64,000 nt of DNA from contig OZ250179.1 of assembly GCA_965238125.1 (NCBI GenBank), positions 4,774,723 to 4,838,722 on the forward strand. The letters are read 5' to 3'. The DNA is from Bryobacterales bacterium (GTDB lineage Bacteria; Acidobacteriota; Terriglobia; Bryobacterales; UBA6623). This document shows, in pieces, positions 27,496-36,228 of the stretch. Made by a program: the position numbers and the translations under genes. The notes beneath the pieces were generated by a model that did not search any database, had not been told where the DNA came from, and saw only the letters and a program-made list of their open reading frames with translations. Position 1 is the stretch's first letter. Each line of letters begins with the position of its first letter.

Positions 27496-29161
27496 CCCGG
27501 ATTTCCACTTTAGTTTCGGTTCTGCTAACCATCGGGTGGACTCGGACGCCTTTATTTATGCGGGCTTGAAAGCACTCAAGGCGCTGAGGAGATCAACACC
27601 CAATGGGTGAAAAAGAAAACAAACCGTTTCAGCTCACCTTCAATGGATTTCTCAAGGTCGATTTCCAAGGATCGCGAGTCACCTCGGATGGCGGGCTGAT
27701 TCTCATTCGCGAACTGGACGAACGACTCGGACTAGGCAAGCTGATAGACGAGCATCTGACGGATTCGCGGCAAGGCTCGAACAAGAAGTTCCCGTTCGTC
27801 GATCTGCTGCGACAGTCGGTCTACTCCCGCTTGGCGGGCTACGAGGATCTCAACGACGCCGTTCGTGTCTCCGCCGATCCAACCTTTCGGCTGATTGGCT
27901 CGAAGAAGAACTGGGATCGCGGCGCGGCGCTGACCTCCCGGCTGCAGAGCTTCGAGACCGCCATGCTCGCCGGCGACGAGAATCTGATCGGGCTGATGGC
28001 GGTGAACCGCGAGTTGATCGCGCAAGCCGAGGCCGGTGATGACTCCGCGTGCGTCGTGCTGGACATGGACTCTACCGAGAGCCCCGTCCACGGCCGGCAG
28101 GAAGGCAGCGCCTACAACGGCCACTTCGAGTCGGTCTGCTACCACCCACTGTTGCTGTTCAACCAGCACGGCGATTGCTTGGCGGCAAAGTTGCGACCGG
28201 GCAACGTGTCCAGCGCCGAGGACTGGGACGAGCTGCTGCTGCCGGAAATCGAACGCCAACAGGCGGAGGGCAAACAGGTGACGTTCCGGGCCGATGCCGC
28301 CTTCGCCAAGCCGGATATTTACGAGACGTTGGAGGAGCGCGGCGTGGACTACGTGATTCGCATCCCGGCCAACAAGAGCCTGGAGCTGGAGATCGAAGAT
28401 ATCCTGTTTCGTCCGCCGGGCAGGCCGAGCGCAAAGCCCCTGGTGCGCTACAGGAGCTTTCGGTATCAGGCCGCGAGCTGGTCGAAGTCCCGGCGGGTTG
28501 TTGCGAAGGTCGAGCATCACTAAGGTGAGTTGTTTCCTCGCGTCGGTTTCATCGTCACGAGCATGGCCTTGCCGAGCCGCTCGCTGGTGCGGTTCTACAA
28601 CAAGCGCGGCACGGCGGAGCAGTGGATCAAGGAAGGCAAACAAGCGACGCATTGGACAAGGCTGTCATGCCATCGGTTCCGGGCCAACGAAGTGCGACTG
28701 CAACTCAGCGTGCTGGCCTATAACCTGGGGAACCTATGGCGGAGGCTCGGGCTGCCGCAACGGATCAAGAGCTGGTCGCTGACGAGCTTGCAACAGCGGC
28801 TGATGAAGACGGGCGGTAGGCTGGTCAAGCATGCGCGGTACTATTGGCTGCTGTTGGCCGAAGGACATCTGAACCGGCGGCTGTTCGGCGACATGCTGCA
28901 TAGGATCTGGGCGCTGCCTGTGCCGGGTGGGTAGCGTTGCCCGGGCGAGGATCAACAGTTTTTGGCTCCAAAAAGGTTTCGCAGGGAGCAGTGTCGGCCG
29001 GAGCGCCGTTCAGTCCGCTCAATCAACGTCTGTGAGCGGACGGACGAGCCCTGGCGCCTACCGGCGGAGGTGATGTGCAGGGTTCAGCGCGAAAAGACGT
29101 GGTATTCGGCGCAGCGGGGGTGTATCCTGTGACCGTGCCAGGGCCAAAATGGAAATCCTGG
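27496..29161 (+). mobile_element. IS1380-family element (1666 bp)
   Basis: TIRs CCCGGATTTCCACTTT / CCAGGATTTCCATTTT; 5-bp duplication CCAAA at 27491-95 and 29162-66. Confidence 0.92.
27603..28934 (+). pseudogene. IS1380 transposase with in-frame TAA at 28521-28523
   Basis: VTSDGGL, LDMDST, FRADAAF, EHH*GELFPRVGF, RGTAEQWIKEGK. Confidence 0.9.
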
Positions 29162-31140: not shown

Positions 31141-31715
31141 CTTGGCCTCCTGCGAAGTAGGTTTGTTTCTTGTCCCTGTCTCCTGACTCAGCATGCGCCG
31201 ACCGAGCGGGGTGAACAAGTAAGTGCACGTTATGTCACGGTAAGTTGGCATGTTGCCTTACCTTGCCGTGCGGGAATTCGGCGAGCTGAGTCACCCTGTC
31301 ACTGCATGCAGGACGCGGTGCAGGGTGCAAAAGGTCGACCCTACAATCGCAAGCCTGAATGGTTCCGACCCGGGCCTTCGAGAGCCACAGCGGCCCTTTG
31401 TGCGACATGAAAATAGTGTCCGAAAATGTCCGGGGGGTTCTGGGGGGCTGCGCGAACTCCGAGAAGATCTTAAGTTGTTATTTAACAACAGATTAGGAAC
31501 TAGAAATCTTGGCTGGAACGCAGCATGCAACAGGGGTCGGCAGTTGTGTCCGCTTTGATAGGTGGGATTCAGTCGGGGGATCTGACCATCCGGCCTTCAT
31601 GAACTACGGAATTACTCAAAAGGGGGTATCCACTTGCTGGTAGTGTCTGAAATCTGCGTTGAACCGAAAACAGCGAACGCTTGCTTTTCGGCTCACCTTG
31701 CCGTACCGTTGAAGT

Positions 31716-32003
31716 ATGGCATCAAGCCGAACTGAACTCCAAGCCCTCAAGAATCTCATCTCCGAAGTTGATCTGATCCTCGAAACAACACCCCTACCCC
31801 AGAACCGAACTGCCCGGAGCCGGGACCTGTTGAGCACGGCCTTGGCGCTCACTGACGATCTGATTGCCCAAACCAAGATGTCTCCTGCGGCTGTCCTGGG
31901 TCGCAAGGGTGGTTCCACCACCGCGAAGCGAGGTTCTGAGTACTTCCGCCAGCTTGCGGCCAAGAGGAAGACGCGGGCGGGCGGCAGGCCCAAGAAACTA
32001 TAG
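31716..32003 (+). CDS. Small basic protein with LGRKGG motif
   Basis: C-terminus AAVLGRKGGSTTAKRGSEYFRQLAAKRKTRAGGRPKK; just inside the left TIR. Confidence 0.7.
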   Translation: MASSRTELQALKNLISEVDLILETTPLPQNRTARSRDLLSTALALTDDLIAQTKMSPAAVLGRKGGSTTAKRGSEYFRQLAAKRKTRAGGRPKKL

Positions 32004-32092
32004 CCGTTTAGAATCAACCAGATAGGATCTGTTGAAAATATAGTAGGAATATTTTACTTGCGTTATTACACGATCTGCAGTAGGGTGTTGGT

Positions 32093-32695
32093 ATGCGAAG
32101 TTCAGCCGATCATATTCCCCTGCCAACGAAAGAACAGGCTGAAGCAATAGTCAATCCGATCAAGGAACCGTTGCGCCAGGCCATCAAGAACGCAATTGAT
32201 GACTGGGACTCTCTCTACGGCGGCGTCAGGCACATTCTGGGCGCGCGCTCCCAGTCCAGCATCATCCATGACCACATAGCCCATCACGCCAAGGAGCTAC
32301 TCGCCTCCACCCCTGACGTGAAGACGTTCAAACGAAAGGGCATCTTCACGATCGCGGTCGAATCAGCAGACATCCGAATCAAGAAGTTGGATGCGAAGTT
32401 GCGCTCCAACAACGTGCGGACGAACCAGCAAACCAAATACTCGTTGCAACTGAAGCTCGACGGATTCTCCGATCTGCCTCGACTAACAGCAGGCTACGTC
32501 CTCGACAACCTACGAATCGAACTTGAGAAAGCTGTCGTGACTCTCCAGGTTGGTCGGACGGTTCGATATGTCGTTCCCCTTACCGAAGAATCGGGGCAGA
32601 GCATTCTACCGTTCACAAGGCCAGTCGAGCCCCCCGCTGCACCACGGAAGCGTGTTCGGGCCAAGAGAACAAGACAAGAAGAAATCAGCGAATGA
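32093..32695 (+). CDS. Unknown 200-aa protein coupled to the XRE-ImmA/IrrE gene
   Basis: ATGA stop/start overlap at 32692-32695; TTGCGT-N17-TAGGGT promoter upstream. Confidence 0.8.
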   Translation: MRSSADHIPLPTKEQAEAIVNPIKEPLRQAIKNAIDDWDSLYGGVRHILGARSQSSIIHDHIAHHAKELLASTPDVKTFKRKGIFTIAVESADIRIKKLDAKLRSNNVRTNQQTKYSLQLKLDGFSDLPRLTAGYVLDNLRIELEKAVVTLQVGRTVRYVVPLTEESGQSILPFTRPVEPPAAPRKRVRAKRTRQEEISE

Positions 32696-33750
32696 GTCGC
32701 CCATTCAATCCCGAGATGCTGATCCTCGCACGCGAATCGCGTGGGCTAACGCAGAAAGAGTTAGCCCACGAGACGGCAATATCTCAGGGCGAGCTATCGA
32801 AGATAGAGACTGGGCTACGAGAGCCTTTTGGCGAGGTAGTTTCCAGGTTGGCTTCTCGCCTGGGATACGCAAGCGGGCTATTTTTCATCGATGATCGGAT
32901 CGTTGGCTCCAGCGGCAACTGTCCCTACTACCGAAAGAGGAAGTCTGCTTCGGTGAAGACGATTAGGCAGGCGCTCGCTGTGGCCAACATCCGTAGGATT
33001 CAGATTTCCCGCCTGCTCATTTCTGGGGTGGCGGAACTTGACACCCAGAAGCAGTTTAGGCGGATCGACATCGAAGATCACCCGGCGGGACCCGCCAATA
33101 TCGCTCGCACGGTTAGAGCGATGTGGTCGCTCCCGCCAGGGCCAATCCAAAATCTGACGCGAGCCGTCGAAGATACTGGTGGCATTGTTTTCAGATGCGA
33201 CTTCGCTTCTAAGATCGACGCTATAAGCCAGTGGCCGACCGGCCTACCTCCGATGTTTTTCATCAACCAAGATATCCCCTGTGACCGTATGCGTTGGACC
33301 CTAGCGCACGAAATCGGTCACGTAATCATGCATCAGATTCCAACTGAGGATATCGAGCAAGAAGCAAACGAATTCGCCGCCGAACTATTGATGCCTGCGA
33401 AAGAGATCGGTCCGCAGCTCACCGAACTATCACTTCCGAAGCTCGCTTCAATGAAGCCTTACTGGAAGGTGTCCATGGCCGCACTCTTGAAGCGTGCATG
33501 CGACCTGAAGACCATCACTCCCCGCCAGAGAAGCTACTTGTGGATGCAAATGGGGGCGCACGGATATCGGAAGCACGAGCCGGTTCCACTTCCCCAGGAA
33601 GATCCAACCTTGGTCCGGGAGATCGTCGATCTACACACCTCACAGTTGGGATTCTCGATCTCCGAACTTTCAGACATGATGCTGATGAAGCCTCCCGAAG
33701 TCCGACAGGAATTCACGCTCCCAAAGACCGGACCTCGGCGCGTTGCTTGA
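32692..33750 (+). CDS. XRE helix-turn-helix fused to ImmA/IrrE Zn metallopeptidase
   Basis: ARESRGLTQKELA...LSKIETG; RWTLAHEIGHVIMH (HExxH); EQEANEFAAELLMP. Confidence 0.93.
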   Translation: MSRPFNPEMLILARESRGLTQKELAHETAISQGELSKIETGLREPFGEVVSRLASRLGYASGLFFIDDRIVGSSGNCPYYRKRKSASVKTIRQALAVANIRRIQISRLLISGVAELDTQKQFRRIDIEDHPAGPANIARTVRAMWSLPPGPIQNLTRAVEDTGGIVFRCDFASKIDAISQWPTGLPPMFFINQDIPCDRMRWTLAHEIGHVIMHQIPTEDIEQEANEFAAELLMPAKEIGPQLTELSLPKLASMKPYWKVSMAALLKRACDLKTITPRQRSYLWMQMGAHGYRKHEPVPLPQEDPTLVREIVDLHTSQLGFSISELSDMMLMKPPEVRQEFTLPKTGPRRVA

Positions 33751-33763
33751 TCCCCTTTTCCTC

Positions 33764-33793
33764 TTGACAAATAGCGAGCGTTCGCTGTATAAT
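33764..33793 (+). promoter_or_regulatory. Consensus sigma70 promoter of the IS1-family transposase with a palindrome in the spacer
   Basis: TTGACA-N18-TATAAT; spacer contains AGCGA-GCGT-TCGCT; ATG 6 nt after the -10. Confidence 0.75.
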
Positions 33794-33799
33794 TGAATC

Positions 33800-34774
33800 A
33801 TGAGAACGTCGATAAAGACAAAGTCTACAATGAGTTGCCAGGAATGTGGCGGCAAGTGTCAACGCTTCGGGAAGCATCGGAATGGACTTCGCCGTTTTCG
33901 TTGCCCGAAGTGCCGCAAGACCTACACCGAACCGCATAAGCGCACTTTGGGCACGATGTACGTTCCTCAGGACAAGGCTTTGTTGGCTGTGCAACTACTG
34001 TTGGAAGGCAACAGCATTCGGAGCACTGAGCGCATCACTGGTCTAGACCGAAACACCATCATGAAGGTCTTGGTACTCGCTGGCGAGAAGTGCAACAAGG
34101 TCATGGGACGGCTGATCGTGAATGTGCCGGTCAAGGATGTTCAGTGCGATGAAATCTGGGGCTACATCTTCAAGAAGGAAGGCCACAAGACCCCCGAGGA
34201 AGTCGCCACTGACGCCACGATCGGAGACGCTTACGCGTTCGTTGCGATCGAGCGGAACACGAAGCTGATTCTCAACTTTGCGCTGGGCCGTCGGGATCAG
34301 GCAACGACGGACGCCTTTATTGAAGGCTTGCGGCTTGCCACTGCACCCCGGCAGTTCCAGATCTCTACCGATGGCTTCCGGCCGTACATCACGGCGATTG
34401 AGGATGCTCTTGAAGACCGCGTTGACTACGGCATGCTGGTTAAGCAATACAGCGAGGCTCCGACCGATGAGAAGCGCTATAGCCCGGCCCAATGTACCGG
34501 CTGCAAGCGGAAAAAGATGATCGGCAACCCGGATCGAGAGCGCATCAGCACGTCCCACGTCGAACGCCAGAATCTCACAATGCGGATGCAGATTCGACGC
34601 CTAACGCGGCTCACGAACGCTTTCAGCAAGAAGTGGGAGAACCATTGGGCGGCGCTCGCCCTGCATTTCGGATACTACAATTTCTGTCGGATTCACTCAT
34701 CGATCCGAGTCACCCCGGCCATGGAAGCGGGGATCTCGGATCACGTGTGGGACTTGGGAGAGCTGCTGTCGTAA
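33800..34774 (+). CDS. IS1-family DDE transposase, single ORF with N-terminal Zn ribbon; intact
   Basis: CQEC...CPKC, VQCDEIWGY, STDGFRPY, STSHVERQN, RRLTRLTNAFSKK. Confidence 0.92.
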   Translation: MRTSIKTKSTMSCQECGGKCQRFGKHRNGLRRFRCPKCRKTYTEPHKRTLGTMYVPQDKALLAVQLLLEGNSIRSTERITGLDRNTIMKVLVLAGEKCNKVMGRLIVNVPVKDVQCDEIWGYIFKKEGHKTPEEVATDATIGDAYAFVAIERNTKLILNFALGRRDQATTDAFIEGLRLATAPRQFQISTDGFRPYITAIEDALEDRVDYGMLVKQYSEAPTDEKRYSPAQCTGCKRKKMIGNPDRERISTSHVERQNLTMRMQIRRLTRLTNAFSKKWENHWAALALHFGYYNFCRIHSSIRVTPAMEAGISDHVWDLGELLS

Positions 34775-34839
34775 AGTTCAACGCAGATTTCAGACAGCAC
34801 CCACTTGCTTGGACCAGCCACAAGATGTAGAATTCCGGG

Positions 34840-35583
34840 ATGGTGGAGGAGTCCGGGCCGCATCCTATTGGCGGCGTTGACTATCCCAGAACCCTGCCGG
34901 AGCTCGACGATTGGTTCTCGTAGGAAGCGACGTGTCTGGCGTTTCTGCAACGGGTTCGGTGGCGGGAGAGCTTCCGATGCCCGCAATGTGCCGGCAGCGA
35001 GGCCTGGCTGACCAATACTGGCCACCTGAAGTGTAGAAAGTGTCGGCGTCGAACCTCTCTGACGGCGGGGACGATTTTTGAACGGACGCGAAAGCCCCTG
35101 CGAGTGTGGTTTCAGGCGATGTGGTACCTGACCAGCCAGAAATCCGGAGGGAGTGCGTTGGGGCTTCAGCGGGTGCTCGGCCTGGGCAGCTACCAGACAG
35201 CTTGGAGTTGGCTCCACAAGCTGCGGCGTGCGATGGTCCGGCCTGACCGGGATCGGCTCAACGGCTGTGTGGAGGTGGATGACACCTACGTCGGTGGCGA
35301 GGAAGAAGGCGTGCGCGGCCGACAAACCGAAGAGAAGGCGATCGTTGTCGTCGCGGCCGAGCAGGACGGGCGGGGGATCGGCCGAATCCGGCTCCGACGG
35401 GTACCCGACGTCTCTAGCGAGAGTCTGCACGGCTTCATCGAAGAAGCGGTCACCCCTCTGGGTCGGTGGTTCACACGGACGGATGGAAGGGCTATCACAA
35501 CATCGCCAAGAAGGGCTCCACTCACAAGGTCACGGTGATCCGCCAAAGCGACGACCCGGCGCACAAACTGATGCCCCGTGTGA
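34840..35583 (+). pseudogene. IS1595-family transposase remnant
   Basis: YPRTLPE, CPQC..CRKC, VEVDDTYVGG, VHTDGWKGY; TAG at 34921, frameshift near 35457, 3' truncated. Confidence 0.88.
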
Positions 35584-35797
35584 TACCCGGGGTCCCCACC
35601 GCGGGAGCGCCTTGTGGTTCGCCAAGACTACGCAGCCGCTTAGATTGAAGTGCTTGCGTCGAATCTCAACTGACAGTCAGGACCGCGGTTCGCACAGCCT
35701 GGTAGCAGTGATTCAGCTGATTCCCTCACTCGTTCGACTGCTCCAACGCTCGACGAATCGTCTGACGCACACCTTCCAAGGCGTCTTGCTGCCCGGC

Positions 35798-36228
35798 GAC
35801 GCTTATGACGCGGGCGGCAACCTGACGAACGATCCGCATGTCGGCAAGATGGCCTACGACGGTGAGAACCATCAGACGAGCTTCGATGCCACCGGCGACG
35901 GCGCTCCCGAAGCGACTTATGAATACGACGGCCACGGAAACCGTGTGAAGAAGATCGAGGGCGCCGCGACCACGGTCTTCGTCTACGACGCCTTCGGGAA
36001 CCTGGCCGCCGAATACGCAACCGCGCCCGACGCCAATCTTTCGGCGAGACGTTCTACCGAACCCTCGATCATCTAGGCTCGACGCGCCTGGTGACCGATG
36101 AGGTCGGAGCGGTCGTCACCCGGCACGATTTCTTCCCCTTCGGCGAAGAAATCCCGGCCAGCGCAACCTTCGGAAACCGCCAACTCCAGGTCGACGGCGG
36201 CTCGTCCACAACCTACAACCAACCCCTA
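35798..36228 (+). pseudogene. RHS/YD-repeat protein internal fragment
   Basis: YDAGGN, YDGENH, YDGHGNRVKK, YDAFGNL; after a frameshift near 36040, TLDHLGSTRLVTD...HDFFPFGEE; core and toxin absent. Confidence 0.85.

What the first reader, a model, noticed from the sequence alone, without database searches (positions are those of the whole stretch)
32093..33750. Unknown 200-aa protein translationally coupled to an XRE-HExxH metallopeptidase
The ATGA overlap and a dedicated promoter indicate a two-gene operon. Established: HTH-fused ImmA/IrrE (COG2856) genes often pair with toxins, and IrrE/DdrO, ImmA/ImmR and CapP/CapH are protease switches triggered by DNA damage or ssDNA. The upstream partner (SIIHDH, IRIKKLD, SNNVRTNQQ, LTAGY) matches no family I can name, so it may be a new toxin or effector.
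Basis: partly seen in the sequence, partly recalled or inferred. Interest (0 to 1): 0.65.

Follow-up and report, generated by a model that had tools for sequence, protein, structure and literature searches.

The report
Rosmer-type pair on IS1 transposon
This is a two-gene toxin-antitoxin / anti-phage cassette of the published "Rosmer" type whose zinc-protease antitoxin is ordinary, but whose 200-residue partner belongs to a large, unnamed protein family with no recognisable fold, and the cassette is carried as cargo inside an IS1-type jumping gene that has recently moved.

Summary
ORF A (32093-32695, 200 aa) overlaps ORF B (32692-33750, 352 aa) by ATGA. ORF B is an XRE-HTH + M78 (HEIGH) protein that matches PADLOC's RmrA, the RosmerTA antitoxin, over its full length (E=1e-55).

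ORF A matches no Pfam, NCBIfam, PADLOC or PDB entry. It belongs to a large family (763 representative clusters, about 200 aa) that overlaps phrog_15813 (unknown function). A confident AlphaFold model (pLDDT 91.5) has no significant Foldseek match. The family is profile-unrelated to a catalogued RmrT (hhalign 0.08%).

In all 27 fetched loci with a family member (17 distinct lineages, down to 18% identity, on phages, plasmids and chromosomes) an RmrA-like gene follows directly. A conserved promoter block precedes the pair.

The best reading is a Rosmer-type toxin-antitoxin or abortive-infection module with an uncatalogued, soluble, basic effector. Toxicity is inferred, not shown.

Intact copies lie at two further sites with their own duplications.

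This is a known kind with a new effector family; interest is moderate.

The parts
31630..31638 (.). Left copy of the 9-bp target-site duplication CCACTTGCT
   Evidence: Direct repeat D11, directly abutting the left terminal inverted repeat. Other copies of the element have different duplications.
31639..31664 (+). Left terminal inverted repeat of the IS1-family transposon
   Evidence: 26 nt, 92% complementary to 34776-34801. The 19-nt core occurs only twice in the window, against 0.03 expected. The 99% identity to L013 begins exactly here.
31672..31685 (.). Near-palindrome AGCGAACGCTTGCT, first copy
   Evidence: It pairs with 33773-33786. Related IS copies without this cargo join their left end directly to the second copy, so it is intrinsic to the IS.
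31716..32003 (+). 95-aa ORF of unknown function, first cargo gene
   Evidence: Called as a gene in all copies of the element (L013, L029-L032). No family match apart from a sub-threshold DUF7547 hit (E=0.021, 15.3 bits against a cutoff of 27). Not found next to the pair outside this element.
32046..32086 (+). Conserved promoter block of the pair: GGAATATTTT box (32046-32055), -35 TTGCGT (32058-32063), -10 TAGGGT (32081-32086). The -10 ends 6 nt before the ATG.
   Evidence: Phylogenetic footprint across loci. Not detected by the consensus scan.
32093..32695 (+). Partner gene (200 aa): inferred Rosmer-type toxin/effector of an unnamed family (overlaps phrog_15813)
32692..33750 (+). RmrA-like gene (352 aa): XRE HTH (nt 32728-32868), M78 peptidase (nt 33187-33495), HEIGH at nt 33307-33321
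   Evidence: PADLOC RmrA E=1.3e-55 over the full length, with 14 RmrA models hit. Pfam. phrog_2439 E=5e-76. Zinc-binding motif intact.
33764..33793 (+). Perfect sigma-70 promoter TTGACA-18-TATAAT of the transposase gene. Its spacer holds the second palindrome copy AGCGAGCGTTCGCT (33773-33786).
33800..34774 (+). IS1-family transposase gene (324 aa, single ORF)
   Evidence: Pfam DDE_Tnp_IS1 26.3 bits (cutoff 24.1). NCBIfam transpos_IS1 E=1e-22 (81 bits, below its cutoff of 100). IS1/IS1595 zinc-ribbon domain.
34776..34801 (-). Right terminal inverted repeat
34801..34809 (.). Right copy of the 9-bp target-site duplication CCACTTGCT

Best explanation
The pair is a Rosmer-type toxin-antitoxin / abortive-infection module.

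Shown:
- ORF B is a full-length RmrA-type protein: an XRE HTH, an intact M78 zinc-peptidase domain and the RmrA C-terminal region.
- ORF A is a soluble, basic (pI 9.9) protein of about 200 aa from a large unnamed family.
- A family member is always encoded immediately upstream of an RmrA-like gene, usually with a 4-nt overlap. The two genes co-diverge.
- The pair has a conserved promoter.
- The pair moves on phages, plasmids and, here, an IS1-family transposon.

Inferred by analogy with verified Rosmer systems:
- ORF A is the growth-arresting effector.
- ORF B neutralises it and probably represses the operon through its HTH at the conserved promoter block.
- A trigger (phage infection, or loss of the element) removes or redirects ORF B and frees ORF A.

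More speculative:
- ORF A acts by binding a phosphate-bearing ligand such as nucleic acid, rather than by canonical metal-dependent cleavage. It has an invariant cationic/polar cluster (R95, K97, K98, N107, T110, Q112, Q119, Y135) but only one conserved acidic residue (D60).
- Its basic C-terminal tail (RVRAK) is the handle that the peptidase domain grips or cuts.
- On the transposon the pair would act as addiction and/or defence cargo.
For: - ORF B matches RmrA over its full length: E=1.3e-55, 14 models. The HExxH and ExxAxxFA motifs are intact in all 9 complete pairs examined.
- The layout is the same as a catalogued Rosmer in E. coli phage Tritos: a 204-aa PADLOC RmrT overlapping a 381-aa RmrA.
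- Synteny holds in 27 of 27 loci with a partner-family hit (17 distinct lineages), each with an RmrA-like ORF directly downstream on the same strand.
- The junction is a 4-nt overlap in 5 of 9 pairs, a 1-nt overlap in 1, and gaps of 2, 9 and 51 nt in the rest.
- The two genes co-diverge: Pearson 0.96, Spearman 0.67 over 36 comparisons. The antitoxin is always the more conserved.
- Partner swapping typical of the Rosmer hub. Of 10 RmrA relatives sampled without regard to their partner, 4 carry this family, 1 a catalogued RmrT, 2 other unknown proteins of about 220 aa, and 3 have no upstream partner.
- The decay pattern fits a toxin. In Devosia the partner is frameshifted beside an intact RmrA, and orphan RmrA genes occur. 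No isolate genome showed an intact partner beside a lost RmrA.
- The pair sits on mobile elements and in low-GC DNA: 0.534 against about 0.61. Hosts include prophage-like contigs, phages, plasmids and the IS1 transposon.
- Literature: delta-rmrA could not be transformed, and Rosmer defends against phage (10.1101/2022.05.11.491447). Diverse RmrTs pair with the ImmA-type antitoxin node D25, 58% toxin-first, and phage Kita RmrT is toxic (PMC10440598).
Against: - There is no experimental or direct computational evidence that ORF A is toxic or binds ORF B.
- ORF A matches none of PADLOC's RmrT models (0 of 97 members).
- ORF A is profile-unrelated to the Tritos-type RmrT (hhalign probability 0.08%).
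- ORF A has no catalytic motif that I can name, and its confident model has no significant structural neighbour.
- Some metagenome contigs show an apparently intact partner beside a split RmrA gene (L014; L004 and L005 are mixed). If real, this argues against lethality. These are low-coverage contigs that look like long-read assemblies (an inference from the contig names), and the L005 frameshift lies in an A6 run, so I discount them.
- The operator has not been identified: only a one-sided conserved box was found.
- No RNA data were available.
Confidence: 0.6

Rival explanations
1. Mobile-element regulatory switch with a non-toxic partner. ORF B would be a self-contained ImmR+ImmA / IrrE-like stress-sensing repressor-protease. 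ORF A would be a co-regulated accessory, such as a sensor or adaptor that presents the signal to the protease, or an exclusion or anti-defence factor, rather than a toxin.
For: - The M78 proteases with known mechanisms (ImmA/ImmR, IrrE/DdrO, CapP/CapH) cleave HTH repressors, not toxins (PMC10440598, PMC6868357, PMC2701414).
- In Acinetobacter phage ABMM1 the pair lies beside the annotated antirepressor and repressor genes.
- In Gordonia phage Shlim410 the pair lies beside the integrase.
- ORF A lacks any recognisable toxin domain.
- Some contigs show a broken RmrA beside an intact partner.
Against: - The pair also occurs alone on plasmids, in chromosomes and inside an IS, with no lysogeny module to regulate.
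- The full-length match is to RmrA, which behaves as an essential antitoxin in tested systems.
- RmrA relatives swap unrelated partners of similar size, as toxin-antitoxin hubs do.
Confidence: 0.2
2. Reversed roles. The peptidase would be the harmful or active component (the original COG2856-as-toxin view), and ORF A would be its inhibitor, chaperone or substrate.
For: - Makarova et al. 2009 listed COG2856 as a predicted protease toxin often fused to an Xre antitoxin domain (PMC2701414).
- A Brucella ZnMP/HTH-Xre pair is discussed in that way (PMC10538038).
- ORF A has a conserved basic tail that could be a substrate-like peptide.
Against: - Orphan RmrA-like genes without any partner-family gene are found on plasmids of isolates, so the peptidase is tolerated alone.
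- In Devosia the partner is decayed while RmrA is intact.
- In tested Rosmer systems the peptidase gene is the one that cannot be deleted (10.1101/2022.05.11.491447).
Confidence: 0.07
3. The cargo controls the transposon. ORF B's HTH would bind the palindrome AGCGAnCGnTCGCT in the spacer of the transposase promoter (and its copy near the left end). Transposition would then be derepressed when the protease switch fires, as ImmR/ImmA does for ICEBs1.
For: - The palindrome lies exactly between the -35 and -10 of a perfect promoter, and a second copy lies 8 nt inside the left terminal repeat.
- ORF B is the only classical XRE regulator in the element.
Against: - Contigs of related IS copies in other samples join a left end directly to TTGACA-AC-palindrome without this cargo (loose ends at 33773). 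The palindrome therefore belongs to the IS itself and is more likely bound by its own transposase.
- The palindrome does not resemble the conserved box upstream of the pair.
- The pair is overwhelmingly found without any IS.
Confidence: 0.05

Closest known systems
RosmerTA (RmrT/RmrA) anti-phage toxin-antitoxin systems (Millman et al. 2022; example fetched here: E. coli phage Tritos genes 40/41)
   Same: - The antitoxin has the same HTH-XRE + M78 peptidase architecture, with a full-length RmrA HMM match.
- The partner of about 200 aa is encoded first and overlaps the antitoxin start.
- The system is mobile and carried by phages and plasmids.
- Related antitoxins pair with unrelated partners.
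   Different: - The partner is not detected by any PADLOC RmrT model (0 of 97 members).
- The partner is profile-unrelated to the Tritos-type RmrT (0.08%).
- A defence-system annotator that needs a hit to these RmrT models would therefore presumably miss the locus.
- Toxicity and defence are untested.
Gordonia phage Kita RmrTA (RmrT-D5 / RmrA-D25; Ernits et al. 2023, PMC10440598)
   Same: [quoted passage not shown]
   Different: - The Kita toxin is membrane-targeted and depolarises the membrane.
- This family is soluble: the maximum Kyte-Doolittle 19-residue average is 0.69, and only 1 of 97 members exceeds 1.6.
- Kita is not among the Gordonia phages that carry this family.
ImmR/ImmA (ICEBs1), DdrO/IrrE (Deinococcus), CapH/CapP (CBASS)
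   Same: They share the M78/COG2856 metallopeptidase and an XRE HTH. The capP and capH models hit ORF B at the domain level (E=4e-16 and 1e-5).
   Different: - In those systems the HTH and the protease are separate proteins.
- Their protease cleaves the repressor to switch on a regulon, ICE or CBASS operon.
- Here the two domains are fused, no such regulon is adjacent, and there is a dedicated partner gene.
spr1629-family repressor/antitoxin (NCBIfam NF052239)
   Same: It has the same overall architecture and aligns over the full length (E=2.6e-30).
   Different: The score is 105.8 bits against a cutoff of 335, so ORF B is not a member.
IS1-family insertion sequences carrying passenger genes ('transporter IS'; Siguier, Gagnevin & Chandler 2009, cited from my own knowledge)
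   Same: The element has a single-ORF IS1-type DDE transposase with a zinc ribbon, terminal inverted repeats and 8-9-bp target duplications, and it carries non-transposition genes inside the repeats.
   Different: The cargo here is a Rosmer-type pair plus a 95-aa ORF. I found no report of such cargo in the held literature, and that search was shallow.

Membership tests
RosmerTA | Antitoxin RmrA: an N-terminal XRE HTH fused to an M78 (ImmA/IrrE) zinc peptidase | tested here: met
   PADLOC RmrA E=1.3e-55, aa 4-340 against model positions 10-360 of 383. Pfam HTH_3 and Peptidase_M78. HEIGH and the downstream E are intact.
RosmerTA | Adjacent gene belongs to a catalogued RmrT toxin family | tested here: not met
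   No PADLOC hit for ORF A or for any RmrT model among 97 family members. hhalign against a Tritos-type RmrT alignment gave a probability of 0.08%.
RosmerTA | Compact two-gene operon, with the partner adjacent to or overlapping rmrA | tested here: met
   ATGA overlap. The same layout is seen in phage Tritos RmrT/RmrA. 27 of 27 loci keep the arrangement.
RosmerTA | Partner is toxic and neutralised by RmrA, and the system protects against phage | not testable with these tools
   This needs expression and phage-challenge experiments. Only indirect signs are available: orphan antitoxins occur, and the partner is decayed beside an intact RmrA in Devosia.
M78 / ImmA-IrrE metallopeptidase (PF06114) | HExxH zinc-binding motif plus a downstream glutamate ligand | tested here: met
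   HEIGH at aa 206-210, followed by EQEANEFAAELLMP. Conserved in all 9 pairs. Pfam score 54.7 bits against a cutoff of 22.
spr1629-family antitoxin (NF052239) | Score above the curated equivalog cutoff | tested here: not met
   105.8 bits against a cutoff of 335.
CapH/CapP (CBASS regulators) | Separate HTH and protease genes that regulate an adjacent CBASS operon | tested here: not met
   The protein is a fusion. The neighbours are a 95-aa ORF and a transposase, with no CBASS genes. There are only domain-level capP and capH hits.
PD-(D/E)XK nuclease superfamily (considered for ORF A) | Conserved acidic catalytic residues D...(D/E)xK on strands beta2 and beta3 | tested here: not met
   The predicted order of secondary-structure elements runs alpha-beta-beta-beta-alpha-beta, and there is a T-x-Q-x-x-x-[F/Y] segment (my reading). 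The weak Foldseek top hits include MepB, BglII, splicing endonuclease and CinB, which I take to be restriction-endonuclease-like folds from my own knowledge (E>=0.1, TM<=0.24). However, strand beta3 carries R-F-K-K, and the only conserved acidic residue is D60. No Pfam PDDEXK model is hit.
IS1 family insertion sequence | IS1-type DDE transposase with an N-terminal zinc ribbon | tested here: inconclusive
   Pfam DDE_Tnp_IS1 scores 26.3 bits, above its cutoff of 24.1. NCBIfam transpos_IS1 gives E=1e-22 at 81 bits, below its cutoff of 100. The IS1/IS1595 zinc-ribbon domain scores 22.4 bits, below its cutoff of 28.
IS1 family insertion sequence | Terminal inverted repeats and 8-9-bp target-site duplications, with copies at different sites | tested here: met
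   26-bp inverted repeats. Duplications are CCACTTGCT (window), GGTGATAA (L030) and CTTCGGGTG (L031). Element length is 3163-3164 bp.

The most novel reading that the evidence does not exclude
The partner family would be a new-fold, non-catalytic effector that poisons the cell by clamping a nucleic acid or nucleotide-bearing target through its invariant R-x-K-K / N..T.Q / G-Y surface. Its short alternating hydrophobic/basic C-terminal tail (RVRAK) would be a pseudo-substrate strand held in the RmrA peptidase cleft. Sequence-unrelated partners of RmrA relatives in Roseivivax and Hymenobacter carry a similar tail. That would give the first general rule for how one protease 'hub' antitoxin guards many unrelated toxins. 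In addition, the pair would act as addiction cargo that stabilises an active IS1 transposon in its host.
Probability: 0.15. Interest if true: 0.65.

Novelty: new variant of a known kind. Interest (0 to 1): 0.42.

Why it matters
- Rosmer is one of the phage-defence / toxin-antitoxin classes whose mechanism I found least explained. The papers I read report toxicity and defence but do not explain how a protease-type antitoxin holds its toxins, or what most of those toxins do.
- This locus adds a large (763 representative clusters), cross-phylum effector family to the class. The family is phage-, plasmid- and IS-borne.
- PADLOC's current models miss the family. A confident structural model now exists, along with a short list of invariant residues to mutate.
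- The family has members in tractable hosts: an Acinetobacter baumannii phage, Gordonia phages, and Rhizobium, Rhodococcus and Polaromonas plasmids.
- The locus is also a clean example of a defence or addiction cassette carried inside an insertion sequence that has recently moved. That is a route for spreading such cassettes that is rarely documented.

Tried and rejected
Family searches for ORF A
- Pfam, NCBIfam and PADLOC on ORF A and on 97 family members gave nothing real. The only hits were single stray matches to Cas8a and SelW.
- A PDB sequence profile search returned only apolipoprotein noise.

Structure
- The first AlphaFold run, on the shallow 17-sequence alignment, gave pLDDT 62.7 and a meaningless fold search. 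The run with 97 sequences superseded it.
- Foldseek against PDB and BFVD with the good model found no hit with E<0.04. A PD-(D/E)XK reading was considered and rejected for lack of the acidic catalytic residues.

Locus retrieval
- The search for related loci with the diverse alignments failed because no stretch was conserved enough.
- With the close alignment it found only one weak SAR86 hit in GTDB genomes and nothing in IMG/VR.
- The second word-indexed homolog search with the profile added almost nothing.
- tblastn of ORF A itself against phages and plasmids gave no hit. A family consensus was needed.

Comparisons and literature
- hhalign against the Tritos RmrT and against the Roseivivax and Hymenobacter partners showed no homology.
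- The NetFlax supplements do not list the named members I tried.
- The 95-aa ORF has no relative in L014's small upstream ORF.

Data not available
- No RNA-labelled runs hold the locus, so there was no transcript evidence.

Interpretations dropped
- 'ORF B regulates the transposase through the palindrome' was considered and down-weighted, because the palindrome belongs to the IS itself.
Full report
**1. Observation**

The window holds ORF A at 32093..32695 (+, 200 aa) and ORF B at 32692..33750 (+, 352 aa). They overlap by ATGA.

ORF B carries Pfam HTH_3 (aa 13-59) and Peptidase_M78 (aa 166-268). It has HEIGH at aa 206-210, followed by EQEANEFAAELLMP. ORF A has no Pfam, NCBIfam or PADLOC match. 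Its only hit was a weak one to phrog_15813 (E=0.022).

The 2-kb bin that holds the pair has the lowest GC in the window: 0.534 against about 0.61 elsewhere.

**2. What ORF B is**

ORF B matches 14 PADLOC RmrA models over its whole length. The best is E=1.3e-55, aa 4-340 against model positions 10-360 of 383. It also matches phrog_2439 at E=5e-76.

RmrA is the antitoxin of RosmerTA. Millman et al. [quoted passage not shown] Ernits et al. 2023 describe an ImmA-protease hub (node D25) paired with different toxins, 58% toxin-first, and show that phage Kita RmrT is toxic and defensive (PMC10440598).

ORF B falls below the cutoff of the spr1629 equivalog: 105.8 bits against 335. It has no close solved relative; CapP is only marginal.

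**3. What ORF A is**

- The word-indexed search found only 17 close relatives, all unnamed.
- The exhaustive search found 763 representative clusters at E<=1e-3 and 142 at E<=1e-10. Nearly all of those listed are about 195-225 aa and align end to end.
- Of 97 diverse members, none hits Pfam or NCBIfam. PADLOC gives only one stray Cas8a hit and no RmrT model. A profile of the family finds nothing real in PDB sequences.
- 73 of the 97 members hit phrog_15813, a phage family of unknown function. The best E-value is 1.6e-14.
- The protein is soluble: the maximum 19-residue hydropathy is 0.69. It is basic, with pI 9.85 against a family median of 9.2.

With the 97-sequence alignment, AlphaFold gives a confident model: pLDDT 91.5 and pTM 0.80. 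It has two long helices (13-45 and 51-69), three strands (76-99), a short helix (111-117), three more strands (130-162) and a less confident tail.

Foldseek finds no significant neighbour in PDB or BFVD. The best E-values are 0.11 and 0.046, and all TM-scores are <=0.36. The weak top hits lean towards restriction-endonuclease-like folds. However, the family keeps only one acidic residue (D60) and has R-F-K-K where (D/E)-x-K would sit. It therefore fails the defining catalytic test for that superfamily.

The invariant or near-invariant residues are K97, K98, T110, G134, Y135, Q119, R95, N107, Q112, D60 and R52, plus a basic residue at 191 in the tail.

**4. Is the pairing real?**

I built an HMM of the family and searched all fetched loci with it and with ORF B. 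Every one of the 27 loci that holds a family member has an RmrA-like ORF starting at the partner's end on the same strand. The script's own tally of 13 is an artefact of stop-to-stop ORF starts; inspection of the coordinates gives 27 of 27.

After collapsing near-identical copies these are 17 lineages. They include:
- Acinetobacter phage vB_AbaM_ABMM1;
- Gordonia phages Shlim410, Howe, Hortense, Twinkle, BBQValindra and Eyes;
- Mycobacterium prophage prophiGD44-1;
- plasmids of Polaromonas, Roseicitreum, Rhizobium leguminosarum, Rhodococcus, Devosia and Klebsiella aerogenes;
- soil or environmental metagenome contigs.

In nine complete pairs the junction is a 4-nt overlap in five, a 1-nt overlap in one, and gaps of 2, 9 and 51 nt in the rest. 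Partner and RmrA identities co-vary (Pearson 0.96, Spearman 0.67), and RmrA is always the more conserved. For example, against the Acinetobacter phage the partner is 18% identical and RmrA 40%.

**5. Partner swapping**

I started from ORF B instead, which found 83 plasmid and 16 phage records, and inspected ten relatives.
- Four have this partner family upstream.
- E. coli phage Tritos has a PADLOC-recognised RmrT of 204 aa (E=7.5e-10) overlapping a 381-aa RmrA (E=5.5e-102).
- Roseivivax and Hymenobacter have other unrecognised proteins of about 220 aa upstream.
- Three (Arthrobacter, A. baumannii pS21-2 and A. pittii) have no upstream partner.

A profile-profile comparison of this family with an alignment of Tritos-type RmrT gives a probability of 0.08%.

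The locus therefore has the architecture of a canonical Rosmer, but its effector family is unrelated to the Tritos-type RmrT, the one catalogued family I compared by profile. That fits the 'hub antitoxin, many toxins' picture.

**6. Promoter**

The consensus scan found no sigma-70 site upstream of ORF A. Alignment of the upstream regions shows a conserved architecture: [G/T]GAATA[T/A]TTT, then 2-6 nt, TTGnnn, 16-18 nt and TAnnnT.

The full pattern was parsed in 11 loci, including Roseicitreum. The upstream box (<=2 mismatches) lies within 120 nt upstream in 15 of 18 loci.

In the window the elements are GGAATATTTT (32046-32055), TTGCGT (32058-32063) and TAGGGT (32081-32086). The -10 ends 6 nt before the ATG, as it also does in L014 and L012. 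This suggests a leaderless or nearly leaderless mRNA, which is an inference.

The one-sided conserved box may be an UP-like element or the HTH operator. I could not decide between these.

**7.

The pair is cargo of a transposon at 31639..34801.
- It has 26-nt terminal inverted repeats (92% complementary here, perfect in other copies).
- These are flanked by the 9-bp direct repeat CCACTTGCT.
- Inside lie a 95-aa ORF, the pair, and a single-ORF IS1-family transposase (33800-34774).
- The transposase sits behind a perfect TTGACA-18-TATAAT promoter.

The same 3,164-bp unit lies intact at two other sites on megabase contigs, each with its own duplication: GGTGATAA between a cytochrome P460 gene and an IS1595, and CTTCGGGTG between an enolase-superfamily gene and rho. 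A further copy sits beside a type I restriction gene, with its transposase disrupted and no right end in the fetched stretch.

Public runs from nine organism labels and nine studies hold the element. Their contigs show the cargo running continuously into the transposase gene, and other flanks.

A 99%-identical copy (L013) keeps the left end and the cargo but breaks off inside the promoter palindrome. It continues into iteron-like repeats and a RepA_C gene, so that copy sits on a plasmid-like replicon.

The near-palindrome AGCGAnCGnTCGCT occurs at 31672-31685 and in the spacer of the transposase promoter (33773-33786). Related IS copies without this cargo also carry it next to their left end. 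I therefore assign it to the IS's own regulation, not to ORF B.

**8. Mechanism**

*Shown:* the domain content, the synteny, the coupling, the co-divergence, the mobility and the promoter conservation.

*Inferred by analogy with tested Rosmer systems:* ORF A is the growth-arresting effector. ORF B is its antitoxin and probably the autorepressor. Loss or inactivation of ORF B, through phage infection or loss of the element, frees ORF A.

*Supporting but anecdotal:*
- Orphan RmrA genes exist.
- Devosia has a frameshifted partner beside an intact RmrA.
- I saw no isolate genome with an intact partner and a lost RmrA.

*Counter-examples:* contigs L004, L005 and L014 show broken genes. They come from low-coverage contigs that look like long-read assemblies. 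The L005 frameshift lies in an A6 run.

*Speculative:*
- The conserved cationic/polar cluster, with no acidic triad, points to binding of a phosphate-bearing target rather than classical nuclease chemistry.
- The tail motif [VI][RKSQG][APVLS][KR] occurs in the last 45 residues of 52 of 97 members, at about seven times its density in the body of the protein.
- A similar alternating hydrophobic/basic tail occurs in the unrelated Roseivivax and Hymenobacter partners. It does not occur in the actinobacterial members or in Tritos RmrT.
- The tail may be the peptide that the protease grips. This remains weak.

**9. Verdict**

The new elements are:
- a large effector family that PADLOC's RmrT models miss, with no detectable fold relative in PDB or BFVD;
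- its conserved promoter;
- its carriage on an IS1-family transposon that has recently moved.

Earlier notes of this scan list many similar Rosmer-type pairs with unnamed partners, so the class of finding is recurrent. Interest is moderate (0.42), and the novelty rating is a new variant of a known kind.

Noticed in passing
window 31639-34801; L030 3546-6709; L031 3546-6709: A complete IS1-family transposon (3163-3164 bp) with 26-bp terminal inverted repeats. It carries three passenger genes and lies intact at three or more sites, each with its own 8-9-bp target duplication. It has therefore moved recently.
   Followed up: yes
window 31672-31685 and 33773-33786: The near-palindrome AGCGAnCGnTCGCT occurs twice. 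One copy fills the spacer of the perfect transposase promoter. Related IS copies without this cargo also have it next to their left end, so it is probably the IS's own regulatory or transposase-binding site.
   Followed up: partly
L013 767-2907 and 2908-4400: A 99%-identical copy of the left IS end plus cargo stops inside the palindrome. It continues into iteron-like direct repeats and a RepA_C gene. This is either a truncated element on a plasmid-like replicon or an assembly chimera (2x coverage).
   Followed up: partly
window 34810-35540: The transposon sits just upstream of the zinc-ribbon and DDE fragments of an IS1595-family element. Two other copies (L030, L031) also have an IS1595 transposase gene nearby. 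IS1595 ends may be a preferred target.
   Followed up: no
window 31716-32003: A 95-aa ORF whose basic C-terminus reads GRKGGSTTAKRGSEYFRQLAAKRKTRAGGRPKK. It travels with the pair only inside this transposon. It has no family match and could be a small nucleic-acid-binding third component.
   Followed up: partly
window 32081-32095; L014, L012: The conserved -10 element ends 6 nt before the partner's start codon, and L001 and L012 show no Shine-Dalgarno sequence. The effector mRNA may be leaderless.
   Followed up: no
window 13.2, 25.2, 36.2, 38.2, 52.4 and 54.1 kb: Six copies of an IS630-like element, each seen as an ORF pair of 187 aa and about 230-270 aa. Other IS debris includes DDE_Tnp_1_4 at 27603-28523. 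The window is unusually rich in insertion sequences.
   Followed up: no
window 35153-36076: An RHS-repeat fragment that ends at an IS630 copy. It looks like a truncated RHS toxin gene.
   Followed up: no
L019 (Devosia plasmid) 821-1476; L020 (Klebsiella aerogenes) 792-2500: In Devosia the partner gene is split across two reading frames while RmrA is intact. In K. aerogenes both genes are broken. This is the decay pattern expected of toxin-antitoxin loci.
   Followed up: partly
L001 7809-12269; L004 3203-4573 and 10982-12612: Close homologues of the pair sit in prophage-like DNA. L001 has ParB_N, an N6/N4 methylase, a terminase and a SocA_Panacea gene nearby. L004 has an integrase and GpA terminase genes.
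   Followed up: no
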